A DNA stretch of 64,000 bases, taken from positions 2,210,248 to 2,274,247 of the forward strand of contig OY843751.1 of the NCBI GenBank assembly GCA_963693055.1, given 5' to 3'. Position numbers and translations under genes: made by a program. The notes under the pieces are model-generated. The model was not told where the DNA came from and searched no databases. It saw nothing but the letters and a program-made list of their open reading frames with translations. Below, one piece after another: positions 1 through 17,761 of the stretch. The first letter of the stretch is position 1; each line of letters begins with the position of its first letter. The stretch comes from a bacterium. Its GTDB lineage: Bacteria; Zhuqueibacterota; Zhuqueibacteria; Residuimicrobiales; Krinioviventaceae.

Positions 1-531
1 TTCATTTGAAAATGTATCCAGCCTCCAGACCGGATTGGTGGTGTTACTAGACGCATAAATACCCAACCCACCGCCACTATCTGTAGTTATCTTAAGCGCG
101 TCATTTGTTCCTTGAGAATAATCAGTCTGTACAATTTCGAATTTACCATTTGGTGCAATTGTACCAATACCTACCTTGCCCCAACATAAAGTCATTACGT
201 CAATTAAGTAACCACTTTTATTTGTTTGAAAGGACATACGATTTCCGCTACTATAGTCATTTTCATATGTTGTGTAAATTTTTCCTGAAATAGCAGCAAC
301 TGCAGCTGGATCCTGTATTATATTGTTTGTTTTAAAACTTATATCAGCAACTGCTCTTACGGTATTACTAGTTTTATATAATGTTAGCAATGCATCCGGA
401 GAACTTGTCCCTAAACCAATTTTTCCAAGGGTTGTTGTTTTAACTGTTGAATCATCCCAAACATTACTTTGAGCTGTTAGTATAGATGTAATTGATATTA
501 AAATAGCAAAAATAATTAATTTTAATTTCAT
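1..531 (-). CDS. tail-fibre-like secreted paralog, 5' part (gene runs off window start)
   Basis: rc ATG at 529-531 with GAGGG RBS; translation MKLKLIIFAILISITSILTAQSNVWDDSTVKTTT...GIGT = signal peptide + DDxW..TTT..GIGT motif shared with paralogs; absent from ORF track because it has no stop inside window. Confidence 0.55.
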   Translation of the reverse strand, partial: MKLKLIIFAILISITSILTAQSNVWDDSTVKTTTLGKIGLGTSSPDALLTLYKTSNTVRAVADISFKTNNIIQDPAAVAAISGKIYTTYENDYSSGNRMSFQTNKSGYLIDVMTLCWGKVGIGTIAPNGKFEIVQTDYSQGTNDALKITTDSGGGLGIYASSNTTNPVWRLDTFSNE

Positions 532-557
532 GTTTTTGCCCTCATTGGTTTGTTAAC

Positions 558-1808
558 TCATTGTCCATTGGATTTATCAAATACCAGTTTTTCAATTATT
601 TGATTCTGTTTTTTATTTTCTTTCTCAAGCTCAATTACATACAAAGTCAATTCTTCAATCTTTTGCAAGAGCTTGGTTTGCATTTCACTGACCTGTATGC
701 CGTTTTCCTGCATTTCTTTTACAGAGGGGATTTCCGGCAGGTGCTTGTTTGCTTTAACGAACTGTTCTACGTGGTAAAGAGAGGGGAGGGCATAATCCTT
801 TTCGAAAACAAAATCCGCTCCGGCGTCTGCTTTTATAGTAATGTCCCGCGCGCTGATCTTGCCGTTAATGGTTAATTTTGCGTCTGTATCCGGTGAACTT
901 GTGCCAATGCAGACTTTGCCGTCATTATCAATTGCAATGCCTTCATCATCACCATCCCCGGAAATGTAATTTGAATTCAATTTAATATTGTCTGAACCAT
1001 TTATATCTATTTCTTTATTGATCTTAATATTTTGAGTGAAATTTATTATGCCATCCTGTTTAATCTCATAAATTTGAATGTCATCACCTTCTAATGCTTC
1101 TGACCATAATTCAAGATCATTATTATTTCCAGAACCGGTCCCTTCATATTTCCAATAATAACCATAATCATCTGTATTAGTACCGATCTTTAAATAAATA
1201 TCTTGATTATCAGGTGTTTGAATATCAATAGCTGTCCCTATTCCACCGCTAATACTACTAATAAATTGTTTAGAGTATACATTTTTAAAAAATTTTGTCA
1301 AAGAACCAATATTATAATAAAAATTTGTATTAGGTAATAAATTTCCTTCAGAAGTTATGATAAATCTTGGAGCATTGTTTGTCCAAAATTGTAAATCCCA
1401 ATTTTCCCGTAGTCTGAAATAACCAATTTTTGTATTTGCGTCTGTTAATAGACCTATTGAAAAACCATCTTGAGCAGTGTGACCGGAAGAGTCTGCAGTG
1501 AAATGTACATATGGTAATGTAGAGTCAAATACATGTAATTTCCGCTGTGGAAAACCACCTACACCTAAAGCTCCACTGATTGTTACATTACCGCCATCGT
1601 CTACACGAACACCTTCATTGTCACCATCATTTGACAGATAAAAATCATTCAGTTCAATGTTTTCATTTATTACTTCGGTAGTAACATTTTTTTTATCTCC
1701 CGGATTTGGGGAAGTATCTGAGGGATTATCCGCAGCTGTTAAAAATGCAGTTCCAATAAAAAGAATGAACAGAGTAAATCGTATTTGTCGTAATGATACA
1801 GAATACAT
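558..1808 (-). CDS. tail-fibre-like secreted protein, paralog family member (conserved C-terminal coiled-coil module)
   Basis: ORF 416 aa; signal peptide; NDGDNEGV..DGG.V motifs; C-terminal ...ADFVFEKDYALPSL.HVEQFVKANKHLPEIPS..EMQENG..VSEMQTKLLQKIEELTLYVIEL; GGGAGG RBS before ATG. Confidence 0.8.
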   Translation of the reverse strand: MYSVSLRQIRFTLFILFIGTAFLTAADNPSDTSPNPGDKKNVTTEVINENIELNDFYLSNDGDNEGVRVDDGGNVTISGALGVGGFPQRKLHVFDSTLPYVHFTADSSGHTAQDGFSIGLLTDANTKIGYFRLRENWDLQFWTNNAPRFIITSEGNLLPNTNFYYNIGSLTKFFKNVYSKQFISSISGGIGTAIDIQTPDNQDIYLKIGTNTDDYGYYWKYEGTGSGNNNDLELWSEALEGDDIQIYEIKQDGIINFTQNIKINKEIDINGSDNIKLNSNYISGDGDDEGIAIDNDGKVCIGTSSPDTDAKLTINGKISARDITIKADAGADFVFEKDYALPSLYHVEQFVKANKHLPEIPSVKEMQENGIQVSEMQTKLLQKIEELTLYVIELEKENKKQNQIIEKLVFDKSNGQ

Positions 1809-1854
1809 GTACGCCTCCCGAAAGTTTTATGAAATTATATAAAATGATTAGAGA

Positions 1855-1884
1855 TATTATTTAATTATTTCCCCAAATAATCCC
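1855..1884 (-). promoter_or_regulatory. conserved leader inverted repeat (TTATTT-GGGG-AAATAA variant)
   Basis: shared motif upstream of transcription-unit first genes. Confidence 0.5.
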
Positions 1885-1947
1885 ACATATGAAACGTACG
1901 AAAAAAATGATTTTTAATCAAGGAATGATAACAGGGTTTATAAGAAA

Positions 1948-1976
1948 AAAAGGGGGAAATTATTATTTCCCCCTTT
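1948..1976 (-). terminator. rho-independent terminator of gene 1991..3469
   Basis: AAAGGGGGAAATTATTATTTCCCCCTTTG hairpin followed by T-rich run. Confidence 0.6.
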
Positions 1977-1990
1977 GTGTATGAGGATAA

Positions 1991-3469
1991 TTATTTAGAG
2001 TTGATGATTGTTCTTAATTCTTGATTTTCGTTTTTCAGTTCAGATATTTCTTTTTTCATATCTATCATATACAAGGTCATTTCTTCAATTTTCTGCAAGA
2101 GTTTAGTTTGCATTTCACTCACCTGCACGCCGTTTTCTTGCATTTCCTGAGCGGAGGGGATTTCCGGCAGGTGTTTGTTTTCTTTAACGAACTGTTCTAC
2201 GTGGTCAAGAGAGGGGAGGGCATAATCCTTTTCGAAAACAAAATCCGCTCCGGCGTCCGCTTTGATAGTAATGTCCTGTGCGGTGATCTTACCGGCGACA
2301 GTGAGTTTGGAATCATTTTCTGGTGAACTTGGACCGATACAGACTTTTCCGTCAAAGTTGATTGAAAGACATTTATGTTCTCTTGTAAAAAAAGACATTT
2401 CATCAATTTGATGATCATAGTAAATTCTACCTCTTGTAACACTTGTATTACTACCAAATAAAATACAGCCTTTACCAGTATTGGGACATAATAAGCTGAT
2501 TCCTGTATTATTATTTGTTTCTAAAACCAGGTCATCGCTTGCACTGTTTGCTGGCATAGCCCCGGAACTCCCCATTCGTGAATGGATAGGATATAACGGA
2601 GAGGTGTTAATTCCCAGTTTATCGCTTACCATTACGTCCCCATCATTTTCAACCTGTACGCCTTCATTACTACCATCGTTTGATATAAAGTTAGAATTTA
2701 ACTTTATATTTCCATTAAATTGTATATTTCCGGTACCTGCTGGAGTAAGTTGAATACTGTTATTGTTATATAGTGCTTTAATATCCATGTAACCTTCTGC
2801 GTTCCATCCATAGCGTGCTACATCAGTATTATTTGATTTTATTGTAATCTCTGAAGTTTGTGGTCCTGTACCGCTTTTATTAAGAGTTAACAGGCTGGTA
2901 GGAAAAATTCCTATACCTATTTTATGAGTTATTTTTACATCGCCATCATCTTCAACAATAATACCTTCATCGTCACCATCATTAGAAATGTAATTACTGT
3001 TTAAATTAATATTCGAATTATATAGTATTACTTTATTATCAACAATTTGCAATCTTCTTTCTTGATAGTTAGTATTACCAGACCAAACATTAAATCCCTG
3101 ATATGTACCTGTTCCGCCACTACAGATGAATTGTAATCCTCCTGCTGCAGCATCACTAAACTGATACCCAAGCCATACATTATCATCATAATTTTGACCT
3201 GCAAAAGTACCCCCTATACCTGTAAATAGAGCTCTGCTGTTTGGTTGAGAAATTTTACTTATTATTCCACTATTATCACCCGGGCTTTTTACTTCAAAGA
3301 AATAAGTGGGGGAAACCCCTATACCCACTTTGTCGTTTGTAGTAATTTTATCTGTACTATCATTCACCCAGTCATCGGCAGATGTATCTTGGGCCAAAAT
3401 AAAATTGAAACAACATAATACCAGAATTATCGAGAACGACAAGTTTTTCCATATGGAATTGTTTCTCAT
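1991..3469 (-). CDS. tail-fibre-like secreted protein, paralog family member
   Basis: ORF-track ORF extends to 3583 but the GGGAGG RBS + signal peptide MRNNSIWKNLSFSIILVLCCFNFILAQDTSADDWV start at rc-ATG 3467-3469; same C-terminal module. Confidence 0.75.
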   Translation of the reverse strand: MRNNSIWKNLSFSIILVLCCFNFILAQDTSADDWVNDSTDKITTNDKVGIGVSPTYFFEVKSPGDNSGIISKISQPNSRALFTGIGGTFAGQNYDDNVWLGYQFSDAAAGGLQFICSGGTGTYQGFNVWSGNTNYQERRLQIVDNKVILYNSNINLNSNYISNDGDDEGIIVEDDGDVKITHKIGIGIFPTSLLTLNKSGTGPQTSEITIKSNNTDVARYGWNAEGYMDIKALYNNNSIQLTPAGTGNIQFNGNIKLNSNFISNDGSNEGVQVENDGDVMVSDKLGINTSPLYPIHSRMGSSGAMPANSASDDLVLETNNNTGISLLCPNTGKGCILFGSNTSVTRGRIYYDHQIDEMSFFTREHKCLSINFDGKVCIGPSSPENDSKLTVAGKITAQDITIKADAGADFVFEKDYALPSLDHVEQFVKENKHLPEIPSAQEMQENGVQVSEMQTKLLQKIEEMTLYMIDMKKEISELKNENQELRTIINSK

Positions 3470-3516
3470 CAAAGCCTCCCTTGAGAAAATAAAATTGAAT
3501 GAATAAAACAGAAAAT

Positions 3517-3634: not shown

Positions 3635-3642
3635 AATGTATT

Positions 3643-5115
3643 TTATTGCTCAAGGTCAATGATGCGGGATTTTAATGAGAAGATTTCGTTTTTCATTTTA
3701 TTGTTTTCACTTATTATTGCCATATTTTCTTTTTTCATTTCAATCATGTAAAGCGTTAGTTCTTCAATTTTTTGCAAGAGTTTAGTTTGCATTTCACTCA
3801 CCTGTACTCCGTTTTCCTGCATTTCCTGAGCGGAGGGGATTTCCGGCAGGTGTTTGTTTTTTTTAACGAACTGTTCTACGTGGTCAAGAGAGGGGAGGGC
3901 ATAATCCTTTTCGAAAACAAAATCCGCACCTCCGGCATCTGCTTTGATAGTAATGTCCTGTGCGCTGATCTTGCCGGCGACGGTGAGTTTGGAATCAGAT
4001 TCCGGTGAGTTTGTACCAATACTGACTTTACCATCAGATTTAATTGTAACTCCTGAAGTAGTTGAACCTGCTGTACCGATATACATTTCATCAGTTGGAT
4101 TGTAATAGTGTATTATTCCTCTACTTATTTGATCTTTATCACCAATATGAATTCCACCTACACCCTGAATACCGGTACCGGATTCTCCGGCAATTATACC
4201 TAATATAGAGTTATTCGTTGTTTCAATATTATTTTGAAATAATGCTACATGTGATCCTACCGATGGCGTGGCACCTTCACCATTCGGCCCGATAACATGT
4301 AATCTTTTTAAAGGATTTAATGTACCAAGTCCCAAAAATCCGTTTGAACTTTTTATAAACATTGCTTCTTTATGCGATCCACCGGCTCCAATTGCCAAAC
4401 CGGTTACACCATCTCCTCCACTTCGTATTATCGGATAAATGGATTGTGTCCCATCTGCCTTGTAGCCAATAATTAAACCGGATTCTGATGTGTTTGTTCT
4501 TCCGAACCATGAAACACTGTAATCTGTAGAAGAAATACCCCCATTTGATCTCACTTCAAAATTATAATTGGGGCTTCCGTTAATTCCCAATTTATTGCTT
4601 ATTATTACATCTCCATCATCTTCGACTGAAATACCTTCATCATCGCCGTCCCCTGAAATATAATTAGAGTTTATTGTAATATTACTGCCAAAGGATACTT
4701 TTCCATCCGATTTAATTGTGACTCCTGAAGTGGTTGAACCTGCTGTACCAATGTACATCTCATCAGTTGGATTGTAATAATGTATTATACCTCTATTTAT
4801 TTGATCTTTATCACCTATTTGAATGCCACCGACACCCTGAATTCCGGTACCAGATTCACCAGCAATAATTCCTAATACTGCGTTATTTGTAGATTCTACA
4901 TTGTTTTGAAATATTGCTACCTGTGATCCCAGCGATGGTATAGAACCTTCACCATTTGGACCGATAACATGTAATCTTTTTAAGGGATTTATTGTGCCAA
5001 TACCAACATTTGTTGTTGTTGTTGTATTCGTACCATTTGTAACCCAGTCATCATCACTGGCTAAAAGGTTCATAATATAAATAAAGAACAACAGAAAGCA
5101 GAGTTTGCATTTCAT
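3643..5115 (-). CDS. tail-fibre-like secreted protein, paralog with internal ~105-aa tandem duplication
   Basis: 490 aa; SP MKCKLCFLLFFIYIMNLLASDDDWVTNGTNTTTTTNVGIGT; duplicated block LNPLKRLHVIGPNGEG...TIKSDGKVS; conserved C-terminal module. Confidence 0.8.
   Translation of the reverse strand: MKCKLCFLLFFIYIMNLLASDDDWVTNGTNTTTTTNVGIGTINPLKRLHVIGPNGEGSIPSLGSQVAIFQNNVESTNNAVLGIIAGESGTGIQGVGGIQIGDKDQINRGIIHYYNPTDEMYIGTAGSTTSGVTIKSDGKVSFGSNITINSNYISGDGDDEGISVEDDGDVIISNKLGINGSPNYNFEVRSNGGISSTDYSVSWFGRTNTSESGLIIGYKADGTQSIYPIIRSGGDGVTGLAIGAGGSHKEAMFIKSSNGFLGLGTLNPLKRLHVIGPNGEGATPSVGSHVALFQNNIETTNNSILGIIAGESGTGIQGVGGIHIGDKDQISRGIIHYYNPTDEMYIGTAGSTTSGVTIKSDGKVSIGTNSPESDSKLTVAGKISAQDITIKADAGGADFVFEKDYALPSLDHVEQFVKKNKHLPEIPSAQEMQENGVQVSEMQTKLLQKIEELTLYMIEMKKENMAIISENNKMKNEIFSLKSRIIDLEQ
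3999..4989 (-). repeat. intragenic tandem duplication (two ~315-bp copies, ~85 % nt identity) in gene 3643..5115
   Basis: copies approx 3999-4314 and 4674-4989. Confidence 0.7.
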
Positions 5116-5149: not shown

Positions 5150-6115
5150 TTAATTATTCTCTTTAAGTATCTCGATTTCCTTTTTTAATTCAATTACATA
5201 CAAAGTCAATTCTTCAATCTTTTGCAAGAGCTTGGTTTGCATTTCACTGACCTGTATGCCGTTTTCCTGCATTTCTTTTACAGAGGGGATTTCCGGCAGG
5301 TGCTTGTTTGCTTTAACAAATTTTTCAACATGATCAAGAGAGGGGAGGTTATAATCTTTTTCGAAAACAAAATCAGCGCCACCGGCATCGGCCTTGATGG
5401 TAATGTCCTGTGCGCTGATCTTGCCAGCAACAGAGAGTTTGGATTCATTTTCTTGTGAACTTGTTCCGATATAGACTCCATCGCTTGCAATTATCATTCT
5501 GTTTTTATTTTCTGTGAAAAACCAAATTTCATCAGTAGGGTGATTATAATAAATTCTTCCAACAGTTGGGTTGCCTTCATCTGCGAAAAAAATTGAACAT
5601 TGTCCACTACTAGGACTTAATAAACTGATCCCTGTATTATTATTTGTTTCTAAGACCAAGTCATCGCTTGCACTACTTGCTGTGGCTCCGGAACTCCCTA
5701 GTCGTGAATGTATATTATATAAAGGAGAAGTATTAAAACCAATTTTATTTTTAATAATTACATCTTTATCATCTTCAATTTCAATTGCTTCATTATTATT
5801 TGTTCCAATACTGAATGAATTAGTTGAGTGATTGTACCTGATATAGCCTCTGGCATTGTCCCCGGGATCCGTACCATCGGCGAAATAGATGGAACCAATC
5901 CCGCTTGTATTAGATGCAATAGTTAATCCCCCATTACCGCTTTCATAAATAACCAAATTGTCTGCGTCCGAATGATATATAGTTGTAGTATTGATACCAA
6001 TTCCAACACTTCCGGTTGTTGTTGTTGAAACAGATGAGCCTTCCCAGGTGTTTTGAGCCCATACAAAGCTGCCGAATAAAATTAAACACAAGAATGTGAT
6101 AGTTAATTGTCTCAT
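5150..6115 (-). CDS. tail-fibre-like secreted protein, paralog family member
   Basis: 321 aa; SP; TTTTGSVGIGINT; conserved C-terminal module; AAAGGAA RBS. Confidence 0.8.
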   Translation of the reverse strand: MRQLTITFLCLILFGSFVWAQNTWEGSSVSTTTTGSVGIGINTTTIYHSDADNLVIYESGNGGLTIASNTSGIGSIYFADGTDPGDNARGYIRYNHSTNSFSIGTNNNEAIEIEDDKDVIIKNKIGFNTSPLYNIHSRLGSSGATASSASDDLVLETNNNTGISLLSPSSGQCSIFFADEGNPTVGRIYYNHPTDEIWFFTENKNRMIIASDGVYIGTSSQENESKLSVAGKISAQDITIKADAGGADFVFEKDYNLPSLDHVEKFVKANKHLPEIPSVKEMQENGIQVSEMQTKLLQKIEELTLYVIELKKEIEILKENN

Positions 6116-6163: not shown

Positions 6164-7678
6164 TTAATGACGTTCCAATTTCGAGAGTCTTGATTCAAGT
6201 GCTTTAATTTTTTTATTTTGTTCAATAATGTACAATGTCAATTCTTCAATTTTTTGTAAATGAAGAATTTGCATTTCACTGACCTGTATGCCGTTTTCCT
6301 GCATTTCTTTTACAGAGGGGATTTCCGGCAGGTGCTTGTTTGCTTTAACAAATTTTTCAACATGATCAAGAGAGGGGAGGTTATAATCTTTTTCGAAAAC
6401 AAAATCAGCGCCACCGGCATCGGCCTTGATGGTAATGTCCTGTGCGCTGATCTTACCGGCGACAGTGAGTTTGGAATCATTTTCTGGTGAACTTGGACCG
6501 ATACAGACTTTTCCGTCAAAGTTGATTGAAAGACATTTATGTTCTCTTGTAAAAAAAGACATTTCATCAATTTGATGATCATAGTAAATTCTACCTCTTG
6601 TAACACTTGTATTACTACCAAATAAAATACAGCCTTTACCAGTATTGGGACATAATAAGCTGATTCCTGTATTATTATTTGTTTCTAAGACCAGGTCATC
6701 GCTTGCACTGTTTGCTGGCATAGCCCCGGAACTCCCCATTCGTGAATGGATAGGATATAACGGAGAGGTGTTAATTCCCAGTTTATCGCTTACCATTACA
6801 TTTCCATCATAATCAATTTGAATACCTTCATTGCCACCATCACCAGATATAAAATTTGAATTCGTTCTGATGTTACCATTACATTGAATATATCCCGTAC
6901 CGGATGGGGTGAGAAGAATATTGTTATTACTATAAAGAGCTCTTATATCCAGATAACCACTAGCATTCCATCCATAGCGTGCCACATCTGTATTGTTTGA
7001 TTTAATAGTAATCTCTGAAGTTTGTGCTCCTGTACCGCTTTTGTTAAGGGTTAACAGGCTGGTAGGAAAAATTCCTATACCAATTTTATTTGTTATTTTA
7101 ACATCACCATCATCTTCGATTTGAATTCCTTCATTATCACCGTCATTGGAAATATATTTGCTATTTAATTGAATGTTACCCAGGTTTAAACCAAGGTTAC
7201 CTGTTTCATCAATTTCAATTGTTTTTCTCCATACACCATTTATTCTTTGGAAAATTCCAAATTTAGTATCTTCAGAACCTGCAGTCAGGTCAATATATTG
7301 CATACCAATACCACCCATATGCGCAGTACTGCCGGATAAATTTCTTGCCCCAAATAAATAACCCGCATACGTATTATTTAGTTGACTGTCATTAAATGTC
7401 TCGAATCCCCATGAACTCCCATTAGCACCAAAATTTGTATCAGAATATGTAAATACTGCTCGTATTTCAGCCTCACCACTTGCACCTGTCCAGGTTCCGT
7501 TGTTCATTTCCAAGCCTCCATTAGAAATTTCAACATTCCCCGTTGTTGTTGTATTGCCACTTCCATCAGTTGTCCAGCTGTCGTCGGTAGTATCATCAGC
7601 CGCCGAAAGTTTTATCGGATTCATTGCGAAAACAATTATTACAATAACTAACAGAATGAAACAGGATTGCCTTTTCAT
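6164..7678 (-). CDS. tail-fibre-like secreted protein, mosaic paralog
   Basis: 504 aa; SP; DDSWTTDGSGNTTTTGNV; 3' third is a near-exact nucleotide mosaic of genes 5150..6115 and 1991..3469. Confidence 0.8.
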   Translation of the reverse strand: MKRQSCFILLVIVIIVFAMNPIKLSAADDTTDDSWTTDGSGNTTTTGNVEISNGGLEMNNGTWTGASGEAEIRAVFTYSDTNFGANGSSWGFETFNDSQLNNTYAGYLFGARNLSGSTAHMGGIGMQYIDLTAGSEDTKFGIFQRINGVWRKTIEIDETGNLGLNLGNIQLNSKYISNDGDNEGIQIEDDGDVKITNKIGIGIFPTSLLTLNKSGTGAQTSEITIKSNNTDVARYGWNASGYLDIRALYSNNNILLTPSGTGYIQCNGNIRTNSNFISGDGGNEGIQIDYDGNVMVSDKLGINTSPLYPIHSRMGSSGAMPANSASDDLVLETNNNTGISLLCPNTGKGCILFGSNTSVTRGRIYYDHQIDEMSFFTREHKCLSINFDGKVCIGPSSPENDSKLTVAGKISAQDITIKADAGGADFVFEKDYNLPSLDHVEKFVKANKHLPEIPSVKEMQENGIQVSEMQILHLQKIEELTLYIIEQNKKIKALESRLSKLERH

Positions 7679-9206: not shown

Positions 9207-10912
9207 AGAGATTCCCTTCCAGTATTATTGAATTTAGTTGTTTTTTCGAGTTCATCAATTCTTGCTTCTAGTTTTTTATTATATTTATCCTGATTAATAA
9301 TATACAGGGTCAATTCTTCAATCTTTTGCAAAAGTTTGGTTTGCATTTCACTCACCTGCACACCGTTTTCCTGCATTTCCTGTGAGGAAGGTATTTCCGG
9401 CAGGTGTTTGTTTTGTTGTATAAATTGTTCAACATGCTGAAGAGAGGGAAGGGCATAATCCTTTTCGAAAACAAAATCCGCGCCACCAGCATCGGCCTTG
9501 ATGGTAATATCCTGAGCACTGATCTTGCCGGCAACAGTGAGTTTGGAACCTGATTCAGGATTGCTGCAGCCGAGAATCACTGAACCATCATAGAGTATCC
9601 TCATTCCTTCATTATTTGTACCAACTCCTAAAATTAATGAACCGTTTTCGGTTGACCTGCCTCTTAAAACAGTATCCCCTGCTTTGCTTCCATTAATGAA
9701 ATTATCATTACCAGTTGCTATTCCAAAGAAAGCCCTGTCAGAATCAATATTGTCAGTATTATTTGTGTTAAGCCGGATTTGAGGTGTGGTTGTTTTGGTT
9801 ATCAGAATTATTCCTTCATCCAAATGCATCTTTTGCAAAGGATTGGTAATACCGATCCCTAAATTCCCTCCAAACCTTTGTAGAATCAATGGTTTCACTC
9901 CAACTCCGTCGTGAGTAGCTTGTATAAATCCCTGATCATTTGTTATATCAAAGCCTATTTGCATTTCTTTAGCTGCGTTTGTTTGCCCTCCGATTATCAG
10001 TTGCGGATTGCTTGTTCCATTCCAATCGCCACGAATTGTCAGAACAGCATTTGACGATCCTGTTGCCTGAACTGTTCCTCCCAATACTACATCACCATTT
10101 ACATTTAATTTTGTGGTAGGAGAGGGCGTACCAATACCCAGATTCCCATTTTCATCCAGTACCATTCTGTTTATTTCAGCGTCAACATCTCTGAAAATCA
10201 GTTTGCCTGCTCCTGATGTAGCAACGTTTGCGGTACTACCAATCATATATGACTTACCGTTGGAATTGGGTTCCGCATTTAAATAAATCCCAGGTCCATA
10301 CCCATTACCTGCCCTGGTTACTTTTATATTTCCATCAACATTCAATCGTTCAGTTAAAGTTGTGGTGCCTATTCCAACATTACCCGTTATATTGGTGTCC
10401 CAGTTTAGATCTATTCCATAATCATCAATGATAATTGCATCATTATAATACCAATTATTTCCTGTTCCAAGTTTATCATAATATCTTCTTGTGCCTATAT
10501 ACATTCTGCCTGTTGCATTGCTATTATTGGTATTTGCTGGAGTAACCAGGATTCGCCCTTGTCCCCATTGTCCTGAACCGTCGGTTGATGAAGGTGCTGT
10601 AAACTCTAACATTGAACCTGATTCTGTAGTTCTTGAAGTATTATTGGCATGTATGATAAAAGCATTATTCTGATCTGTAACAGTGTTTATTGTAGTTGCT
10701 GATGTAAAAACGAACCGGGCACGTCCGCCGGAAAAGTCAAGTTTGTAAGTTGGAGTGATTCCAATACCTACATTAGTTGTCAAAGTAGTTGTACTGCTGC
10801 CGGATGTTTCCCAATCATCATTTGTTGTGTCTTGTGCAGCAAGGTTATAAAAGAAGCAACTAATAAAAAACAGGATATTGATTAATCCAAATAGCCATTG
10901 ATTCGTTTTCAT
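9203..10912 (-). CDS. tail-fibre-like secreted protein, paralog family member
   Basis: ORF to 10984 in track; GGAGGAAAGG RBS and SP MKTNQWLFGLINILFFISCFFYNLAAQDTTNDDWETS favour start 10912; conserved C-terminal module. Confidence 0.75.
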   Translation of the reverse strand: MKTNQWLFGLINILFFISCFFYNLAAQDTTNDDWETSGSSTTTLTTNVGIGITPTYKLDFSGGRARFVFTSATTINTVTDQNNAFIIHANNTSRTTESGSMLEFTAPSSTDGSGQWGQGRILVTPANTNNSNATGRMYIGTRRYYDKLGTGNNWYYNDAIIIDDYGIDLNWDTNITGNVGIGTTTLTERLNVDGNIKVTRAGNGYGPGIYLNAEPNSNGKSYMIGSTANVATSGAGKLIFRDVDAEINRMVLDENGNLGIGTPSPTTKLNVNGDVVLGGTVQATGSSNAVLTIRGDWNGTSNPQLIIGGQTNAAKEMQIGFDITNDQGFIQATHDGVGVKPLILQRFGGNLGIGITNPLQKMHLDEGIILITKTTTPQIRLNTNNTDNIDSDRAFFGIATGNDNFINGSKAGDTVLRGRSTENGSLILGVGTNNEGMRILYDGSVILGCSNPESGSKLTVAGKISAQDITIKADAGGADFVFEKDYALPSLQHVEQFIQQNKHLPEIPSSQEMQENGVQVSEMQTKLLQKIEELTLYIINQDKYNKKLEARIDELEKTTKFNNTGRESL

Positions 10913-10943: not shown

Positions 10944-12695
10944 TTAATTGTTTTGAATTGTTTTGATCCATTTTTTGATTTCACTGTTTTCTTTTTTTAT
11001 GGAATCATTTTCTTTTTTTAATTCAATGACGTATAATGTTAATTCTTCTATTTTTTGTAACAGATTTGCCTGGAACTCACCAATATCAATTCCCTTATTT
11101 GTTGCTTCATCTGCGGAAGGAATACCGGGCAGGTGTTTATTCTGGTGGATAAATGCTTCGGTTTCTTCTATAGACATGAGGTCATAATCATCTTTAAATA
11201 CATAATCAGGTAATGATTCCTGCTGTAACTGGATTTCCTGTGCTTTGATTTTATTGTTTACAACCAGTTCTTTATTTACAGTTACCTGGTTATCCGTATT
11301 TATTGACATTGATACATTATCAGATTCATCGAGAAAAATTATATTATTCCCTTTAATACCCACGGGAGTTGTCCAATCGTTACCGTTATATGCGTCCCAT
11401 AGCATCGTACTTAGTCCACTATTATAATATAATCGTCCTTTTAACAATCCATTACTATTTATACCAATCGAGCCATTAATATCCAGAGTATGGGTGGATT
11501 CCATATTGATACCCAATTTATTTATCTGTGTATAAGCATTTTCCAGATTTATATCAAAAATATTTACATAATTAGAACCACGGATAAATAAATGTTTTGA
11601 GGTTCCTGATTGCTCTTGAATATAAAAATTTCCATTTGCCACTGACATAGACCAATCCATATTTACATCATCTTCTGAAAACCATATAACCGGAGAAGCA
11701 CTTTTAATTTGAAATGAATAATCTGGAGATATTCCAATACCTATTTTGTTGGAAATAAATATATCTCCATCATTTTCCACTTTAATTCCTTCATCATCTC
11801 CATCACCTGATAAAAAATTGGAATTCAGTATGATTTTACCAGTAAGTAAATTCAGATCACCACCTGCATTAATATCAATTAACGGTGTTGAGAAATTTGT
11901 AAATCTAAAGAGAGGTCTGGCATTGACTGTAGTAAATGTTCCGTTTATGGGATCGCCACTGTGAAGTTGACCAATAAATGTTATTAGGGGAACATTTCCA
12001 ATGTCATATTCACTTGTAGTCATTCCCTGGAATATTAATGAATGCCTGGTACTGGATGGAGTTGTACCATAAAAAGCTGGTTCAAATATTCCGGTAGAAT
12101 ATGTAGAATTTTTAATTCCGAATTGATATCCGGTTGCATCACTTACTGTCGCTTTTATAATACTTTCACGGCTCGTTGATTCTGCTAAAGAAACAATATC
12201 AATGGTTGAATTAATATTTGTTGTATTAACGCCTAATTTTCCATTTTCATTAACCCTGAATAATTGTGAGTTTATGTCATTATTATGACTTATAATTAAT
12301 GCAGCATTTTCGTCATTTGTATCCGAATCCAGGTCGATAATGTAATTTCTTAAACCCGATGTCCAGGCATCCCTTGTATCTGTTAGTCGTGTACCGAATA
12401 TTGCATTATTGATTTTTATTTTGTCTAAACCATATGTAGTTCCAATTGTTAATTTTTCTGTTGGATTAATTCCGATTCCCAGTTTACTACTTGCGACTAC
12501 ATCGCCATCATTTTCAACAGTGATTCCTTCATTACCTCCATCATTGGACAGGTAATACCCATTGAGAGAAATGTTTTCGGTAAGCACTTCATCAATACTG
12601 TTACTTGAAGAATTCTCAACAGCAACCAAAAAATTTACCATTGAAAAAAAGAACAACAAAAACAGTTTACCTGTACACATTGTAAGGTTTTTCAT
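10944..12695 (-). CDS. tail-fibre-like secreted protein, divergent paralog
   Basis: SP MKNLTMCTGKLFLLFFFSMVNFLVAVENSSS at rc-ATG 12695 with AAGGTGGG RBS; divergent C-terminal module ...NKHLPGIPSADE..LLQKIEELTLYVIELKKEN. Confidence 0.75.
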   Translation of the reverse strand: MKNLTMCTGKLFLLFFFSMVNFLVAVENSSSNSIDEVLTENISLNGYYLSNDGGNEGITVENDGDVVASSKLGIGINPTEKLTIGTTYGLDKIKINNAIFGTRLTDTRDAWTSGLRNYIIDLDSDTNDENAALIISHNNDINSQLFRVNENGKLGVNTTNINSTIDIVSLAESTSRESIIKATVSDATGYQFGIKNSTYSTGIFEPAFYGTTPSSTRHSLIFQGMTTSEYDIGNVPLITFIGQLHSGDPINGTFTTVNARPLFRFTNFSTPLIDINAGGDLNLLTGKIILNSNFLSGDGDDEGIKVENDGDIFISNKIGIGISPDYSFQIKSASPVIWFSEDDVNMDWSMSVANGNFYIQEQSGTSKHLFIRGSNYVNIFDINLENAYTQINKLGINMESTHTLDINGSIGINSNGLLKGRLYYNSGLSTMLWDAYNGNDWTTPVGIKGNNIIFLDESDNVSMSINTDNQVTVNKELVVNNKIKAQEIQLQQESLPDYVFKDDYDLMSIEETEAFIHQNKHLPGIPSADEATNKGIDIGEFQANLLQKIEELTLYVIELKKENDSIKKENSEIKKWIKTIQNN

Positions 12696-12736
12696 AGACC
12701 CACCTTGATTTTTTGATATGATTAAATAATGAAAGT

Positions 12737-12765
12737 GTTTATTTGATTTGAATCCCCAAATAAAT
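12737..12765 (-). promoter_or_regulatory. conserved leader inverted repeat GTTTATTTG-N10-CAAATAAA
   Basis: read directly. Confidence 0.5.
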
Positions 12766-12826
12766 CCACAATTATTATACAAAAATGGACTCTATTATCC
12801 AATTACTAAATGACGATTTGCAAATA

Positions 12827-12859
12827 AAAAAGGGACAATTTATTAAAACTGTCCCTTTT
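12827..12859 (-). terminator. rho-independent terminator of gene 12889..14265
   Basis: AAAAGGGACAatttattaaaacTGTCCCTTTT. Confidence 0.6.
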
Positions 12860-12888
12860 AAAATCAGTAAATTATTGTGGATCAATAA

Positions 12889-14265
12889 TTATTTTGTTTT
12901 TAGTAAAATATTTTTTTCCAGTTTTTCAATTTTTTTATTCATCTCTATCATGTGCAACGTCAGTTCTTCAATCTTTTGTAAAAGTTTGATCTGCATTTCA
13001 CTCACCTGTACTCCGTTTTCCTGCATCTCTTTTGCAGAGGGGATTTCCGGCAGGTGCTTGTTTTCCAGAACATACTTTTCAACATGTGCAAGAGAAGGGA
13101 GGGCATAATCATTTTTGAAAACAAAATCCGCTCCGGCGTCCACTTTGATGGTAATATCCCGTGCGCTGATTTTGCCGGCAACTGTGAGTTTCGCATCAGC
13201 AACAGGAGATGTAGTTGATGTACCAATACAAACTTGTCCATTAGAATCGATTGAGATGCCTTCATCATCGCCATCACCTGAGATATAGTTGTTATTTGTA
13301 TTAATCGTTCCTTGTAGATTAATATTGCCAGCTGAGCCCGCAACCAACTTTAACATTCCTGGAGAAATTGCATGGTTTTCACCATAGCTTACAATATATG
13401 ACCCCCTGTTTGAACTGATCCCGCCTCCACCGGAAATAGCGACTGATTTTTCATCATTCCCTGTTGTTGTGTTTGTTCTTAAAGTTGTTGTTGATAGTCT
13501 TCCAATAAATGCACCGTTACATTCGATATTGCCTGAGAATGAAGCTATACCTGAATCTGATATTTGTAATCCTTCATCGTCACCATCATTTGAAATAAAA
13601 TTATTATTCATCTCAATATTTGTATTTGTAAACCTGAATGTTCCTTCATTTTCATCAAATCTTCCAACTTCAATGCCATTATTTACATGAAAAACAATAT
13701 CTGCTATATTCCCGGATGAAAAGCCCAAAGCACCTGATGAAGTCATTTTTACAGCAGAGCCTCCCCAACCATTGAAATTCAGTGAAGCTGAATTGTTTAA
13801 TTTAGAAAATTTAACATCCCCATCATTCCCTATTTGAATACCTTCATTATCCCCATCATTTGAAAGATAATTCGAATTTAATATTAAATTTCCATTATTA
13901 AGATGGATATTATCATTTTGATCAATTGATAATGAAATTCTTCCGGCAGTACTGTTAACTATTTGAAAGTAATCTAAACCTGTACCTGAACCGTTGACTC
14001 GCATTGTCCATTCTCTGGCGTCATTTTGTAAACGTAATGTTGCATTTTGGTTCAATGTTGTTGATTTAATTCTCAAGTCAGCCACAGATGTTTGAATGTC
14101 AAAATCATAATTAGGAGATAAACCAATACCCACATTGCCAGTTGTTGTTGTATTGCCATTTCCATCAGTTACCCAGTTATCATCTGATGCTTGTATAGTA
14201 CATGAATAAAAAATAGCAATAAAGATACTGATGAAAAATTTTTTTAACATGGATACAGATTTCAT
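12889..14265 (-). CDS. tail-fibre-like secreted protein, paralog family member
   Basis: 458 aa; SP; SDDNWVTDGNGNTTTTGNVGIG; GDGDDEGI repeats; conserved C-terminal module; GGGAGG RBS. Confidence 0.8.
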   Translation of the reverse strand: MKSVSMLKKFFISIFIAIFYSCTIQASDDNWVTDGNGNTTTTGNVGIGLSPNYDFDIQTSVADLRIKSTTLNQNATLRLQNDAREWTMRVNGSGTGLDYFQIVNSTAGRISLSIDQNDNIHLNNGNLILNSNYLSNDGDNEGIQIGNDGDVKFSKLNNSASLNFNGWGGSAVKMTSSGALGFSSGNIADIVFHVNNGIEVGRFDENEGTFRFTNTNIEMNNNFISNDGDDEGLQISDSGIASFSGNIECNGAFIGRLSTTTLRTNTTTGNDEKSVAISGGGGISSNRGSYIVSYGENHAISPGMLKLVAGSAGNINLQGTINTNNNYISGDGDDEGISIDSNGQVCIGTSTTSPVADAKLTVAGKISARDITIKVDAGADFVFKNDYALPSLAHVEKYVLENKHLPEIPSAKEMQENGVQVSEMQIKLLQKIEELTLHMIEMNKKIEKLEKNILLKTK

Positions 14266-14317
14266 GTTCGCCTCCCTAAATACATTAAAGAATTTGTGTA
14301 AATAGAATGATTAATGT

Positions 14318-14346
14318 GTTTATTTAATATACATCCCCAAATAAAT
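14318..14346 (-). promoter_or_regulatory. conserved leader inverted repeat
   Basis: GTTTATTTA-N11-CAAATAAA downstream of promoter 14356-14384. Confidence 0.5.
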
Positions 14347-14355
14347 CCTCGAAAG

Positions 14356-14384
14356 AATATAGATATATATTTTGAGTGAATCAA
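14356..14384 (-). promoter_or_regulatory. sigma70-like promoter for the unit 12889..14265
   Basis: minus strand TTGATT-17 nt-TATATT. Confidence 0.45.
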
Positions 14385-14400
14385 TGAATTGTTGAAAAGA

Positions 14401-14432
14401 AAAAGGGGAGACGTGGAATAATTTCTCCCCTT
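14401..14432 (-). terminator. rho-independent terminator of gene 14449..15444
   Basis: GGGGAGAcgtggaataatTTCTCCCC + TT. Confidence 0.55.
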
Positions 14433-14448
14433 AATAGTTAATAGGATT

Positions 14449-15444
14449 TTATTTTGCAGAAATCATTTCTTTTAAACGATGATTTTCTTTTTCAAGTGAA
14501 TCTACTTTTTTATTCACTTTTATCATGTGTATTGTCAGTTCTTCGATTTTTTGTAAAAGTTTGCTTTGCATTTCACTCACTTGCACACCGTTTTGCCGCA
14601 TTTCCTGTACTGAGGGGATTTCCGGCAAGTGCTTGTTTTTCTGTATAAACTGTTCAACGTATTCAAGTGAAGGGAGCGCGTAATCTTTTTCAAAAACAAA
14701 ATCCGCACCGGCGTCCACTTTGATGGTAATATCCCGTGCGCTGATTTTGCCGGCAACTGTGAGTTTCGCATCAGCATCAGGAGATGTAGTTGATGTTCCA
14801 ATACAAACTTGTCCATCAGAATTAATTGAAATGCCTTCATCGTCGCCATCATTTGATATATATTTTGTGTTAATCTTTAAATTTGCACCAAATGCAATAG
14901 CATCAGGTGTTGCTGAGTTTTGTTCAAACCAGAAAAAACTTTTTCTGTATGTGTAATCGTCATTCATTGCCTGAAAATACAGATTACCTAATGTTGTGTT
15001 AATTCTCCAATTCTTTTGGTTAGTTGCGACATCATTTTCTTCAAATAATAATTCTGGACTATCTCCATAGACATGTAATAATGATTGCGGATTGGTTGTA
15101 CCAATTCCAACTTGACCACTATTTTTTAGAAACAATGTGTTTTTTAAAATTCCATCTAGTTGTGTTCGAAATTGTAGATTCAAGTTTGTGGTTCCAGATT
15201 CATCTCGTGCTTGAATAAAGGCAGTTCCGGAAGTACCCTCACCATTATAAGAATACAAATAAATATGCCCTCTTCCGTAATAATCGCCATTTACATGTAA
15301 TGATTTTTTGGGATTTAATGTCCCTATCCCAACACTACCGTTTGTAGTCGTTTCAACTGTTGTTGAACCATTCCAGTAATCTTTACTCATAGATTTATTG
15401 CTAAATAAAAATAAAAATGCAAATATCATAATATGCTGTTTCAT
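14449..15444 (-). CDS. tail-fibre-like secreted protein, paralog family member
   Basis: 331 aa; SP; KDYWNGSTTVETTTNGSVGIGT; conserved C-terminal module; AAGGAG RBS. Confidence 0.8.
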   Translation of the reverse strand: MKQHIMIFAFLFLFSNKSMSKDYWNGSTTVETTTNGSVGIGTLNPKKSLHVNGDYYGRGHIYLYSYNGEGTSGTAFIQARDESGTTNLNLQFRTQLDGILKNTLFLKNSGQVGIGTTNPQSLLHVYGDSPELLFEENDVATNQKNWRINTTLGNLYFQAMNDDYTYRKSFFWFEQNSATPDAIAFGANLKINTKYISNDGDDEGISINSDGQVCIGTSTTSPDADAKLTVAGKISARDITIKVDAGADFVFEKDYALPSLEYVEQFIQKNKHLPEIPSVQEMRQNGVQVSEMQSKLLQKIEELTIHMIKVNKKVDSLEKENHRLKEMISAK

Positions 15445-15632
15445 TCATGTTCTCCTTATAAAATGAGATTTTTTATTTATTTTTTAAAAAAAATATGCAA
15501 TTTGTATGGGAATCCAATAAATTTTAAGGAAATAAACTTAACTTTTTAAGCTAATTTTTATAATTAATACGTGTTGACATTTTTTTCAAGAATGTAATAT
15601 TTTAATTAACTTTTAAACGAACAGTTGTTGCT

Positions 15633-15895
15633 TTATCCAATACTGAGTTTTCCGCTTATAAACACATCTCCATCATTTCTATTTGAGATCTTCATTATCT
15701 CCATCATTAAACAGGTAATCCTGTTGAGAGATATGTTATCATCGAGTATAAGCATATCTTCAGTATTGTTATAATTTTGGCTGTTAATCCTATTGCCGGT
15801 ATTTTTTGCATTTTTAACAGCAATGAACAAGTTTCCCAATAAAAAAAAATGAGCAACAAAAATAATCTGCCAGTAAGCATTGCCATGTTTTTCAT
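15633..15895 (-). pseudogene. 5' remnant of a tail-fibre-like paralog (signal peptide + first repeat, frameshifted, body deleted)
   Basis: two overlapping small ORFs MKNMAMLTGRLFLLLIFF... and ...ISNRNDGDVFISGKLSIG resemble the N-terminus of 10944..12695 (MKNLTMCTGKLFLLFFF...NDGGNEGITVENDGDVVASSKLGIG); preceded by a copy of the family leader motif. Confidence 0.6.
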
Positions 15896-15934
15896 TGTAC
15901 CGACTTAATTTTTTTATAATTGATTGAAGGAAAG

Positions 15935-15965
15935 TGTTTATTTGTTTTACAACACGAAATAAACC
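15935..15965 (-). promoter_or_regulatory. conserved leader inverted repeat upstream of paralog remnant
   Basis: GTTTATTTG-N12-(C)AAATAAAC. Confidence 0.4.
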
Positions 15966-17760: not shown

Positions 17761-17761
17761 T

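What the first reader, a model, noticed from the sequence alone, without database searches (positions are those of the whole stretch)
1..15965. 16-kb tandem array of at least 12 rapidly diversifying secreted 'tail-fibre-like' paralogs sharing one C-terminal module
Eleven intact or partial genes plus one 5' remnant sit on the minus strand. Each has a signal peptide, a D(D)xW..(T)4..GNVGIGT N-terminal motif, variable numbers of NSNYISGDGDDEGI..DGDV..KLGIG modules and a conserved ~110-aa C-terminus. That C-terminus reads ..GKISAQDITIKADAGADFVFEKDYALPSL.HVEQFVK.NKHLPEIPS..EMQENG.QVSEMQTKLLQKIEELTLY.IE.. and is followed by a heptad coiled coil. The architecture resembles phage tail fibres/receptor-binding proteins with a C-terminal trimerisation/intramolecular-chaperone-like domain. 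However, no phage, tailocin or contractile-injection structural genes are nearby, so the fibres appear to be free-standing, sec-exported proteins. There is no T9SS C-terminal sorting domain, although the genome clearly uses T9SS elsewhere. The copy number, tandem arrangement and mosaicism suggest a cell-surface adhesin or receptor-binding protein repertoire under diversifying selection. This may be an undescribed cassette system.
Basis: partly seen in the sequence, partly recalled or inferred. Interest (0 to 1): 0.8.

Follow-up and report, generated by a model that had tools for sequence, protein, structure and literature searches.

The report
Tandem array of exported tail-fibre-like proteins
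A Bacteroidota genome carries a row of at least twelve genes for exported proteins built like phage tail fibres, all ending in one conserved tail module; the family is widespread, uncharacterised, shared with marine phages, and often sits next to toxin and secretion genes.

Summary
The minus strand of 1-15,895 carries ten complete paralogs, one gene cut by the window edge and one decayed 5' remnant. All share a C-terminal module of about 76 aa plus a coiled coil.

The shafts are homologous to the trimeric beta-helix of Bdellovibrio MAT fibres and to phage tail fibres. The C-module has no Pfam or NCBIfam model. It shows no sequence or fold similarity to the Peptidase_S74 chaperone.

The module is not unique to this genome:
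- It occurs in thousands of Bacteroidota proteins.
- 37 of 80 related loci are tandem arrays, with up to 17 genes.
- It also caps tail-fibre-like proteins, without signal peptides, in uncultured marine myophages.

Arrays are often followed by Rhs/YD-shell toxin genes. In some Flavobacteriia and Sphingobacteriia they are interleaved with the Bacteroidota T2SS-like gene cluster.

The paralogs are old (dS about 1) and the module is under strong purifying selection (dN/dS about 0.08). Diversity comes from module shuffling. Positive selection was not demonstrated.

Best reading: a repertoire of Sec-exported, MAT-like binding fibres that share one C-terminal assembly or docking cap. Export route, oligomeric state and ligands are inferred, not shown. 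I rate it a new variant of a known kind.

The parts
1..531 (-). F0: 5' part (177 codons) of a further paralog. It has a signal peptide and GxxGxGT rungs and runs off the window start.
558..1808 (-). F1, 416 aa: signal peptide, two YxSxDGDxEG modules, C-module and coiled coil.
1991..3469 (-). F2, about 492 aa from the signal-peptide ATG at 3469 (the ORF extends to 3583). It shares a 241-aa block at 90% identity with F5.
3643..5115 (-). F3, 490 aa, with an internal duplication of about 115 aa.
5150..6115 (-). F4, 321 aa. It starts 48 nt after the F5 stop.
6164..7678 (-). F5, 504 aa.
7858..9206 (-). F6. The ATG at 9206 overlaps the F7 stop (ATGA). The signal peptide is out of frame at a T5 run (9168-9164). 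The body contains an internal duplication.
9203..10912 (-). F7, 569 aa from the signal-peptide ATG at 10912.
   Evidence: (P0140, 569 aa)
10944..12695 (-). F8, about 583 aa from the signal-peptide ATG. Its C-module is divergent, about 50% identical to the others.
12889..14265 (-). F9, 458 aa, with three YxSxDGDxEG modules.
14449..15444 (-). F10, 331 aa. It has three GxVGIGT rungs around an approximately 82-aa beta unit. This protein was modelled and matches MAT fibres.
15633..15895 (-). Decayed 5' remnant of an F8-like gene, with frameshifts and truncation after 'KLSIG'.
1871..1884 (-). Conserved upstream motif GGDTTWATTTGGGG. Copies lie at 1871-1884, 3534-3547, 7740-7753, 12754-12767 and 14335-14348, each 60-75 nt before F1, F2, F5, F8 and F9. 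It occurs only in the array.
1949..1976 (-). Terminator-like hairpins in the long spacers, after the F2, F3, F6 and F9 stops: 1976-1949, 3634-3607, 7844-7817 and 12859-12828.
16496..18046 (-). Flank of the array: a fragment read by eye as the C-terminus of a tyrosine recombinase (16496-16798), and an IS3-type element. IS3 orfB is at 16930-17625 and orfA, assigned by eye, at 17762-18046.
19456..22419 (+). Orphan Rhs core-end and toxin-tip cassettes (19456-20252 and 21427-22419) with small downstream ORFs. They match the HMM built from the Rhs proteins that follow fibre arrays in related loci.

Best explanation
The array encodes a repertoire of Sec-exported fibre proteins derived from, or shared with, phage tail fibres. 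They are the Bacteroidota counterpart of the Bdellovibrio MAT fibres.

Each protein has four parts:
- a signal peptide;
- one to three 'GxVGIGT..P..KLxV' beta-helix rungs;
- between the rungs, variable and shuffled beta-rich modules, which I take to be the ligand-binding part;
- after the last rung, a conserved C-terminal cap: a small helical domain with the motifs ADFVF..DY.L.SL, NKHLPxIPS and LLQKIEELTLYxI, followed by a coiled coil of 2-8 heptads.

The cap sits exactly where MAT fibres and phage spikes carry their S74 chaperone or tip domain. I infer that it nucleates and registers oligomerisation of the fibre from the C-terminus, and/or docks all paralogs to one common partner or export route. 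The variable part would provide different binding specificities.

In the window the genes fall into about six transcription-unit-like blocks with a private upstream motif. In related genomes such arrays lie inside the Bacteroidota T2SS-like (type IV filament) cluster and directly upstream of Rhs/YD-shell toxin genes. The likeliest role is therefore surface or secreted binding fibres used in cell-cell or cell-substrate contact, possibly connected with antagonism.

Shown: the gene anatomy, homology of the shaft, conservation and spread of the cap, its presence in phages, and the gene linkage.
Inferred: trimer formation, passage across the outer membrane, ligand binding, and any link to toxin delivery.
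For: Anatomy and paralogy.

Shaft homology:
- phmmer against PDB hits Bd2133 at E 4e-6.
- The profile hits Bd2133 at 1e-12, Bd1334 at 6e-8, Bd2439 at 5e-5 and Bd3182 at 7e-4. Each match is at the rung. In Bd2133 it lies just upstream of the linker to the tip domain described in PMC10769870.
- Foldseek of the F10 model returns only MAT fibres above threshold, then T4 gp34.
- PHROG tail-fibre families match at E about 1e-10.

The cap:
- It is always at the extreme C-terminus in the 120 homologues examined.
- Its polar residues D38, K89, E91, E92 and T94 are invariant, and N60 and H62 nearly so.
- dN/dS is about 0.08 at dS about 1.
- The AF2 model has pLDDT 87.5 and is mainly helical.

Spread: at least 1220 and 2454 proteins in two searches, and at least 595 sites in GTDB species representatives.

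Arrays: 37 of 80 loci are tandem arrays of up to 17 genes. The nearest related genome has 4 tandem fibre genes followed by an SpvB/RHS giant.

Phage copies: the cap ends proteins next to a baseplate wedge gene, or on contigs with major head and tail sheath genes.

Gene linkage:
- Fibre genes are interleaved with genes for a prepilin-like protein, prepilin peptidase, GspE/PilB ATPase, secretin and GspF. This cluster has been described in Bacteroidetes (PMC5553014).
- Rhs or the unknown giant 'c1' lies downstream of 10-11 of 25-29 arrays that have room downstream.

Related shaft: a Saprospiraceae protein with the same shaft carries a T9SS sorting domain instead of the cap, which argues for an extracellular location of this kind of shaft.
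Against: - No experiment bears on location, oligomeric state or ligands.
- The coiled-coil core has a = I/N/V and d = L. That is the pattern of dimeric leucine zippers, not the usual trimer pattern.
- The AF2 models are monomers. The full-length model is mediocre (pLDDT 72.9, TM-scores about 0.2 to the interleaved MAT chains).
- T2SS-like genes are seen near arrays in only about 8 of 80 loci, and not in the 48 kb to the right of this array.
- The Rhs link in the window consists of orphan toxin tips on the opposite strand, beyond an IS element.
- Polarity is the reverse of MAT fibres. Here the C-terminus is conserved and the N-terminal side varies, so which end is distal is unknown.
- Signal peptides were judged by eye and regex only.
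Confidence: 0.55

Rival explanations
1. The fibres are cargo or surface appendages of the Bacteroidota T2SS-like machine. They act as targeting fibres for the adjacent Rhs/YD-shell toxins, so the whole would be a contact-dependent antagonism system. The cap would be the common recognition or docking element.
For: - Fibre genes sit between the ATPase, secretin and platform genes in L018, L024 and L026.
- Rhs proteins with DUF6443 and the Rhs core (TIGR03696), or SpvB/YD-shell giants, follow arrays in about 40% of loci with room downstream, and in the nearest related genome.
- Orphan Rhs tips lie beside the window array.
- Sec signal peptides fit two-step secretion.
Against: - The evidence is gene linkage only.
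- Most loci show neither partner within 10 kb.
- Variable islands may simply collect such genes.
- No T2SS gene is present in the window.
- The phage copies need no such machine.
Confidence: 0.18
2. The cap is a self-cleaving intramolecular chaperone, analogous or distantly related to Peptidase_S74. It would be removed after assembly, so mature fibres would lack it.
For: - It occupies the same position as S74 after the same rung motif (PMC10769870).
- It ends in a helix, as the endoNF chaperone domain does.
- It is conserved across cell and phage fibres.
- It has invariant or nearly invariant polar residues D38, N60, H62, K89 and T94.
Against: - No PF13884 hit at E <= 1.
- hhalign probability 0.45% against the endoNF chaperone domain.
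- BFVD matches to S74 proteins are short alignments that mostly cover only the rung.
- No invariant Ser for a Ser-Lys dyad.
Confidence: 0.12
3. The proteins are periplasmic and tethered to peptidoglycan through a C-terminal lysine on a coiled coil, in the manner of Braun's lipoprotein. They would not be surface fibres.
For: - The last residue is Lys in 115 of 211 family ORFs, against 100 of 630 neighbouring ORFs (Fisher p 2e-26). In the window it is Lys in 4 of 10.
- The tail is a coiled coil.
- A Sec signal alone delivers a protein only to the periplasm.
Against: - The phage copies share the Lys-rich ending without any peptidoglycan context.
- 45% of members do not end in Lys.
- No lipobox is present.
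- The shaft is homologous to extracellular fibres.
- A sister architecture carries a T9SS sorting domain.
Confidence: 0.07
4. These are ordinary prophage or tailocin tail fibres, or silent cassettes that recombine into one expressed locus.
For: - PHROG tail-fibre hits.
- Some sources name relatives 'tail fiber protein'.
- The paralogs are mosaic.
- An IS element and a recombinase fragment lie next to the array.
Against: - No phage structural genes were found among the ORFs scanned in 48 kb.
- Every intact copy has a start codon, and all but F6 an in-frame signal peptide. Most are preceded by a GGGAGG-like sequence, and there are terminators and a shared upstream motif.
- dS of about 1 argues against recent cassette exchange.
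- No inverted repeats suggest an invertible switch.
- The cap has no match in 50,697 deposited GenBank phage records.
Confidence: 0.04

Closest known systems
Bdellovibrio bacteriovorus MAT (mosaic adhesive trimer) fibres: Bd2133, Bd1334, Bd2439, Bd3182 (PMC10769870; PDB 8OND, 8OML, 8OL4, 8OJN)
   Same: Both are cell-encoded rather than virion proteins with a phage-tail-fibre-like architecture. Both are multi-paralog, mosaic families. The beta-helix rung 'GNVGIGT..P..KLxVxG' is homologous. In both, a terminal module follows the last rung.
   Different: MAT fibres have an invariable N-terminal anchor and a variable C-terminal tip or S74 domain. Here the C-terminus is the invariable part and no N-terminal domain is conserved. 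The proteins here are much shorter (320-570 aa against about 1000). The genes are in tight tandem arrays. The host is Bacteroidota, not a Bdellovibrio predator. The cap is not found in the solved MAT structures.
Phage tail fibres (T4 gp34/gp36 type; PHROG 9942 and 18345) and uncultured marine myophage fibres (IMG/VR loci L098, L102)
   Same: They share rung motifs. The marine myophage proteins carry the same C-terminal cap.
   Different: The window proteins carry Sec signal peptides and lie in no phage context. The cap is absent from the 50,697 deposited GenBank phage records searched.
Peptidase_S74 / intramolecular chaperone auto-processing domain (endosialidase CIMCD, T5 pb1, MYRF)
   Same: It holds the same place in the architecture, at the C-terminus directly after the same rung. 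It also ends in a helix.
   Different: No sequence, profile or fold similarity was detected, and there is no conserved Ser-Lys dyad. Cleavage is unknown.
Trimeric autotransporter adhesins
   Same: The design logic is the same: a Sec signal, variable mosaic head and stalk modules, a coiled coil, and a family-defining conserved C-terminus.
   Different: There is no YadA-type beta-barrel anchor (no Pfam hit). The C-terminus here is a charged helix that is not membrane-embedded.
Bacteroidetes T2SS-like cluster (CHU_3191-3201, Fjoh_0614-0622, Phep_1102-1112; PMC5553014)
   Same: The same set of components (secretin, GspE, GspF, prepilin peptidase, pseudopilins) surrounds fibre genes in L018, L024 and L026.
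   Different: In the passages of that paper that I searched, fibre genes are not mentioned. No such cluster is visible in this window.

Membership tests
Bdellovibrio MAT fibres | Trimeric beta-helix shaft built from GxVGIGT..KLxV rungs | tested here: met
   Sequence and profile hits to 8OND, 8OML, 8OL4 and 8OJN. Foldseek probability 1.0. Trimer state itself was not tested.
Bdellovibrio MAT fibres | Invariable N-terminal anchoring domain | tested here: not met
   After the signal peptide the proteins begin with a rung or a YxSxDGDxEG module. N-terminal parts are 25-35% identical and no shared domain is present.
Bdellovibrio MAT fibres | Variable C-terminal tip domain or S74 domain | tested here: not met
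   The C-terminus is the most conserved part, at 74-95% identity. No S74 domain is present.
Peptidase_S74 intramolecular chaperone | Match to PF13884 or to a solved chaperone domain | tested here: not met
Peptidase_S74 intramolecular chaperone | Conserved Ser-Lys catalytic dyad at the cleavage site | tested here: not met
   The invariant columns contain no Ser.
Peptidase_S74 intramolecular chaperone | C-terminal position directly after the triple beta-helix | tested here: met
   The cap follows the last rung, the motif that aligns to the rung of the MAT fibres. It is always at the protein end.
Virion tail fibre (prophage or tailocin) | Encoded among baseplate, tail or head genes, with no signal peptide | tested here: not met
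   No phage genes in 16-64 kb. Signal peptides are present. The criterion is met by the IMG/VR homologues L098 and L102.
T9SS cargo | C-terminal Por_Secre_tail / CHU_C sorting domain | tested here: not met
   None in the 10 fibres. Present in three other window proteins and in the shaft homologue P0128.
Trimeric autotransporter adhesin | YadA-type C-terminal beta-barrel anchor | tested here: not met
   No Pfam hit. The C-terminus is modelled as a charged helix.
Substrate or component of the Bacteroidota T2SS-like system | Gene linkage with secretin, GspE and GspF genes; secretion dependent on them | tested here: inconclusive
   Linkage is seen in about 8 of 80 related loci but not in this window. 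Dependence of secretion on these genes cannot be tested here.
Braun-lipoprotein-like peptidoglycan tether | Lipobox plus a C-terminal Lys on a trimeric coiled coil | tested here: inconclusive
   No lipobox. Terminal Lys is enriched, at 55% against 16%, but is present in only 4 of 10 window genes. The phage copies share the Lys-rich ending.

The most novel reading that the evidence does not exclude
The cap-bearing fibres are the missing cargo or appendage of the orphan Bacteroidota T2SS-like (type IV filament) machine. They would serve as exchangeable targeting fibres for the Rhs/YD-shell toxins encoded just downstream. This would be a previously unrecognised contact-dependent antagonism or adhesion apparatus assembled from domesticated phage-fibre parts. 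The large arrays would be its specificity repertoire.
Probability: 0.15. Interest if true: 0.85.

Novelty: new variant of a known kind. Interest (0 to 1): 0.6.

Why it matters
Cell-encoded relatives of phage tail fibres have so far been characterised mainly in Bdellovibrio, where they recognise prey. This finding points to a much larger, unannotated family across Bacteroidota, including gut, soil and marine lineages. The family has its own conserved C-terminal cap, which it shares with marine phages, and it expands into arrays of up to 17 genes.

It would matter for three reasons.

First, it nominates concrete candidate substrates for the poorly understood Bacteroidota T2SS-like system.

Second, it suggests a partner for DUF6443-type Rhs toxins. 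My searches found no description of how these toxins are exported or targeted.

Third, it defines a new fibre-capping module that could be tested as a folding or trimerisation tag, and for which a Pfam or NCBIfam model could be built.

Tried and rejected
- Pfam and NCBIfam scans of all ten proteins gave only sub-threshold noise: bZIP, T4 gp36 at 21 bits against a cutoff of 26, and others.
- Rfam found nothing in the window.
- tblastn of the cap against 50,697 GenBank phage records gave no match.
- hhalign against the K1F endoNF chaperone domain gave probability 0.45%.
- Foldseek against BFVD found one likely homologue. The matches to S74 proteins were weak and mostly short alignments over the rung.
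- Attempts to fetch the source contig beyond the window start failed. The exact-product look-up had no record for F1, F3, F4 or P0133. The source species was not among the returned GTDB hits. What lies downstream of the array, to the left of the window, is therefore unknown.
- A search for an invertible promoter or inverted repeats near the recombinase fragment found nothing convincing.
- The Bacteroidetes -7 consensus TAnnTTTG was found before only one gene, F5.
- The sigma-70 promoter scan gave no more hits than shuffled sequence.
- The array-specific upstream motif is absent from all 110 other loci.
- The profile search of 1.84 billion representatives was swamped by giant multi-rung proteins, so it gives no clean count for the cap.
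- Literature searches for DUF6443, for Bacteroidota tail-fibre-like arrays and for T2SS/Rhs links found no description of this family. The 2012 survey of polymorphic toxins uses 'T2SS' only as an export-pathway label in its tables, in the passages I read.
- Pairwise dN/dS gave no sign of positive selection. Site-wise tests were not run.

Full report
**1. What is in the sequence**

The minus strand of 558-15444 holds ten complete ORFs of 416, 530, 490, 321, 504, 466, 593, 612, 458 and 331 aa. I call them F1 to F10.
- An eleventh gene, F0, begins at 531 and runs off the window start.
- A frameshifted 5' remnant resembling F8 lies at 15633-15895.
- Using the first Met followed by a signal-peptide-like segment, the true starts of F2, F7 and F8 are at 3469, 10912 and 12695.
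- F6 has its signal peptide (MKKLVFIILMVAGF) in another frame. One extra T in the T5 run at 9168-9164 would restore it. This is either a pseudogene, a homopolymer sequencing error or a slippage site.

The C-terminal 76-aa core is 74-95% identical among nine paralogs and about 50% in F8. The N-terminal parts are mostly 25-35% identical, with shared blocks:
- F2 and F5 share 241 aa at 90% identity.
- F4 shares 55-60% identity with both.
- F3 and F6 carry internal duplications.

**2. Organisation of the array**

Gaps between genes are either short (overlap to 48 nt) or long (173-193 nt). Each long spacer contains three elements:
- a terminator-like hairpin just after the upstream stop;
- a conserved motif, GGDTTWATTTGGGG, found five times against 0.3 expected, only in the array and in none of the 110 other loci;
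- a GGGAGG sequence before the ATG.

This suggests units F10 | F9 | F8-F7-F6 | F5-F4-F3 | F2 | F1-F0. These are expressed genes, not silent cassettes.

**3. Age and selection**

In the cap, the median dS is about 1.0 and dN/dS about 0.08. The paralogs are therefore old, and the cap is kept by purifying selection on the protein rather than by recent gene conversion. F4/F5 and F2/F3 are younger pairs. Shared variable blocks give dN/dS of 0.14-0.39. 'Rapid diversification under positive selection' is not shown. Diversity arises from old divergence plus duplication and shuffling of modules.

**4. What the proteins are**

No Pfam or NCBIfam model reaches its cutoff. The shaft nevertheless has clear relatives:
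- PHROG tail-fibre families 9942 and 18345 match the N-terminal and middle parts at E 1e-8 to 1e-11.
- Against PDB sequences the only significant hits are the Bdellovibrio MAT fibres.
- A profile of the cap region plus its preceding rung hits Bd2133 (1e-12), Bd1334, Bd2439 and Bd3182 at the 'GNVGIGT..P..KLxVxG' rung. In Bd2133 the aligned stretch lies just upstream of the linker to the tip domain described in PMC10769870.
- An AF2 model of F10 (pLDDT 72.9) retrieves only MAT fibres at E <= 1e-3 with probability 1.0, then T4 gp34.

Per PMC10769870, MAT fibres are cell-surface, trimeric, mosaic adhesins with an invariable N-terminal anchor and a variable tip or an S74 chaperone at the C-terminus.

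**5. The C-terminal cap**

- It always ends the protein, with 17-81 residues of coiled coil after 'EELT'.
- Invariant or nearly invariant residues include D38, F41, Y45, N60, H62, L63, P64, K89, E91, E92, T94 and Y96.
- AF2 gives pLDDT 87.5: two short strands, two short helices and a long helix of about 50 residues.
- hhalign against the endoNF S74 chaperone domain gives probability 0.45%.
- Pfam S74 does not match.
- The cap is therefore not an S74 domain, although it stands in the same architectural position.
- The heptad core is a = I/N/V and d = L. This looks like a leucine zipper, which explains the weak bZIP hits and some database names. It is a caveat for a trimer.
- The last residue is Lys in 55% of family members against 16% of neighbouring ORFs (p 2e-26).

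**6. Spread of the family**

- The cap finds at least 1220 proteins. Full-length F10 finds 2454.
- The source genome alone contributes at least 16 paralogs to the top hits, more than the window holds.
- In GTDB species representatives at least 595 sites were found. Nearly all are Bacteroidota (Flavobacteriales, Cytophagales, Sphingobacteriales, Chitinophagales, Bacteroidales). A few are Desulfobacterota and Balneolales MAGs.
- Of the 80 loci returned, 37 are same-strand tandem arrays. The largest are 17 genes in Sphingobacterium spiritivorum ATCC 33861, 12 in Pedobacter vanadiisoli and 11 in Flavobacterium seoulense.
- Sources name these proteins 'hypothetical', 'tail fiber protein' or 'bZIP transcription factor'.
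- The cap also terminates giant multi-rung proteins.

**7. Phage connection**

The cap has no match in 50,697 GenBank phage records. IMG/VR, however, holds 29 loci. Some of these are true myophage contigs:
- In L098 an 878-aa protein without a signal peptide ends in the cap. It follows a baseplate wedge gene (phrog_219, E 5e-26).
- In L102 a 612-aa cap protein lies on a contig with a major head gene (2e-73) and two tail sheath genes (2e-80).

The cap is thus a module shared between phage fibres and cellular exported fibres. It stays constant while shafts vary, so it is more likely an assembly or docking element than a receptor-binding tip.

**8. Genomic company**

In the window, the side upstream of the array holds:
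- a fragment read by eye as a tyrosine recombinase C-terminus;
- an IS3 element;
- on the other strand, two orphan Rhs core-end and toxin-tip cassettes with small ORFs and repeated spacers.

The remaining 40 kb is ordinary: TonB-dependent receptors, T9SS cargo, glycoside hydrolases and regulators.

In related loci the neighbours recur:
- A 1000-1270-aa unknown protein ('c1') and a DUF6443 plus Rhs-core giant follow the array. This holds in 10-11 of the 25-29 arrays that have room downstream, against 3 of 25-32 single genes.
- The nearest related genome has four fibre genes, a small protein with a T9SS sorting domain, and then an SpvB/FG-GAP/RHS/YD-shell protein of at least 1984 aa.
- In Flavobacterium, Algibacter, Arcticibacter, Balneola and a Bacteroidota MAG the fibre genes are interleaved with genes for a prepilin-like protein, prepilin peptidase, GspE/PilB ATPase, secretin, PilM/O-like proteins and GspF. 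This is the 'Bacteroidetes T2SS' cluster described for Cytophaga hutchinsonii, F. johnsoniae and Pedobacter heparinus. In the passages of that paper I searched, no substrate is identified (PMC5553014).
- A Saprospiraceae protein has the same 82-aa shaft repeat and a coiled coil, but a T9SS sorting domain in place of the cap.

**9. Interpretation**

The best-supported reading is a repertoire of Sec-exported, MAT-like fibres. Their variable beta-rich parts provide binding diversity. Their common cap nucleates oligomerisation and/or docks them to one partner or export route.

Export by the T2SS-like machine, and a role alongside Rhs toxins, are attractive but rest on gene linkage in a minority of loci.

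Rivals considered:
- a self-cleaving chaperone analogous to S74;
- an Lpp-like peptidoglycan tether;
- prophage fibres or silent cassettes, which the evidence largely excludes.

**10. Novelty**

Four literature searches found no description of this family, its cap, its arrays or its linkage. It is best filed as a new variant of the cell-encoded phage-fibre-like adhesins exemplified by the Bdellovibrio MAT proteins. It fails two of the MAT family's defining features, the N-terminal anchor and the variable C-terminal tip. It should therefore not be called a MAT member.

Noticed in passing
window 1871-1884, 3534-3547, 7740-7753, 12754-12767, 14335-14348 (minus strand): A conserved motif, GGDTTWATTTGGGG, sits inside a longer conserved stretch (TTTTTGTAC..TTT.ATATGTGGG.TTATTTGGGGA....AT.AAATAA) 60-75 nt upstream of F1, F2, F5, F8 and F9. 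It gives 5 hits against 0.3 expected, none elsewhere in the window and none in the 110 other loci. It does not fit the Bacteroidetes TAnnTTTG promoter consensus. It may be a private promoter or regulator site.
   Followed up: partly
window 9164-9168 (T5 run) within 9130-9206: The signal peptide of F6 is in a different frame from the body of the gene. One extra T would restore the frame. The cause could be a homopolymer sequencing error, a pseudogene or slipped-strand switching. The F6 ATG overlaps the F7 stop (ATGA).
   Followed up: partly
window 19080-24007: There are two orphan Rhs core-end and toxin-tip cassettes (19456-20252 and 21427-22419; the 204-nt core-end repeat is 93% identical). 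Each is followed by small ORFs that could be immunity genes. They are separated by three copies of a repeated non-coding element of up to about 350 nt (19080-19423, 21183-21290, 23570-23920). Rfam has no match.
   Followed up: partly
window 1-15444, just upstream of the fibre-gene start codons: A strong GGGAGG/GGAGG sequence resembling a Shine-Dalgarno site precedes most fibre genes by a few nucleotides. From my own knowledge, Shine-Dalgarno use is generally weak in Bacteroidota, so this would be unusual.
   Followed up: no
family-wide (loci L001-L080, L111); window F2, F6, F9, F10: The last residue is Lys in 55% of family members against 16% of neighbouring ORFs (Fisher p 2e-26). All four fibres in L111 end in Lys. 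The reason is unknown.
   Followed up: partly
L016 6016-9201, L054 10382-13726, L080 11506-14478 and others: An unknown protein of 1000-1270 aa ('c1') recurs between fibre arrays and the DUF6443/Rhs gene in about 13-15 loci. It has no NCBIfam hit. Only one member was scanned against Pfam, and it showed only a PKD domain.
   Followed up: partly
window 25623-27269: A LuxR-type response regulator is followed by a baeRF_family3 protein (bacterial archaeo-eukaryotic release-factor-like).
   Followed up: no
window 16930-18046 and 39282-40103: Two IS3-family transposase copies (rve domain). The first, together with a recombinase-like fragment at 16496-16798, separates the fibre array from the Rhs cassettes. 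This hints at a rearrangement.
   Followed up: no
P0127 (438 aa, ENA metagenome): A homologue made of four near-identical tandem copies of the 82-aa rung-plus-beta unit found in F10, followed by the cap. This shows that the shaft grows by unit duplication.
   Followed up: no
window 54711-56343: Two adjacent DUF1670 genes with helix-turn-helix domains lie between genes for T9SS cargo and a pectin-degradation gene (GH28).
   Followed up: no
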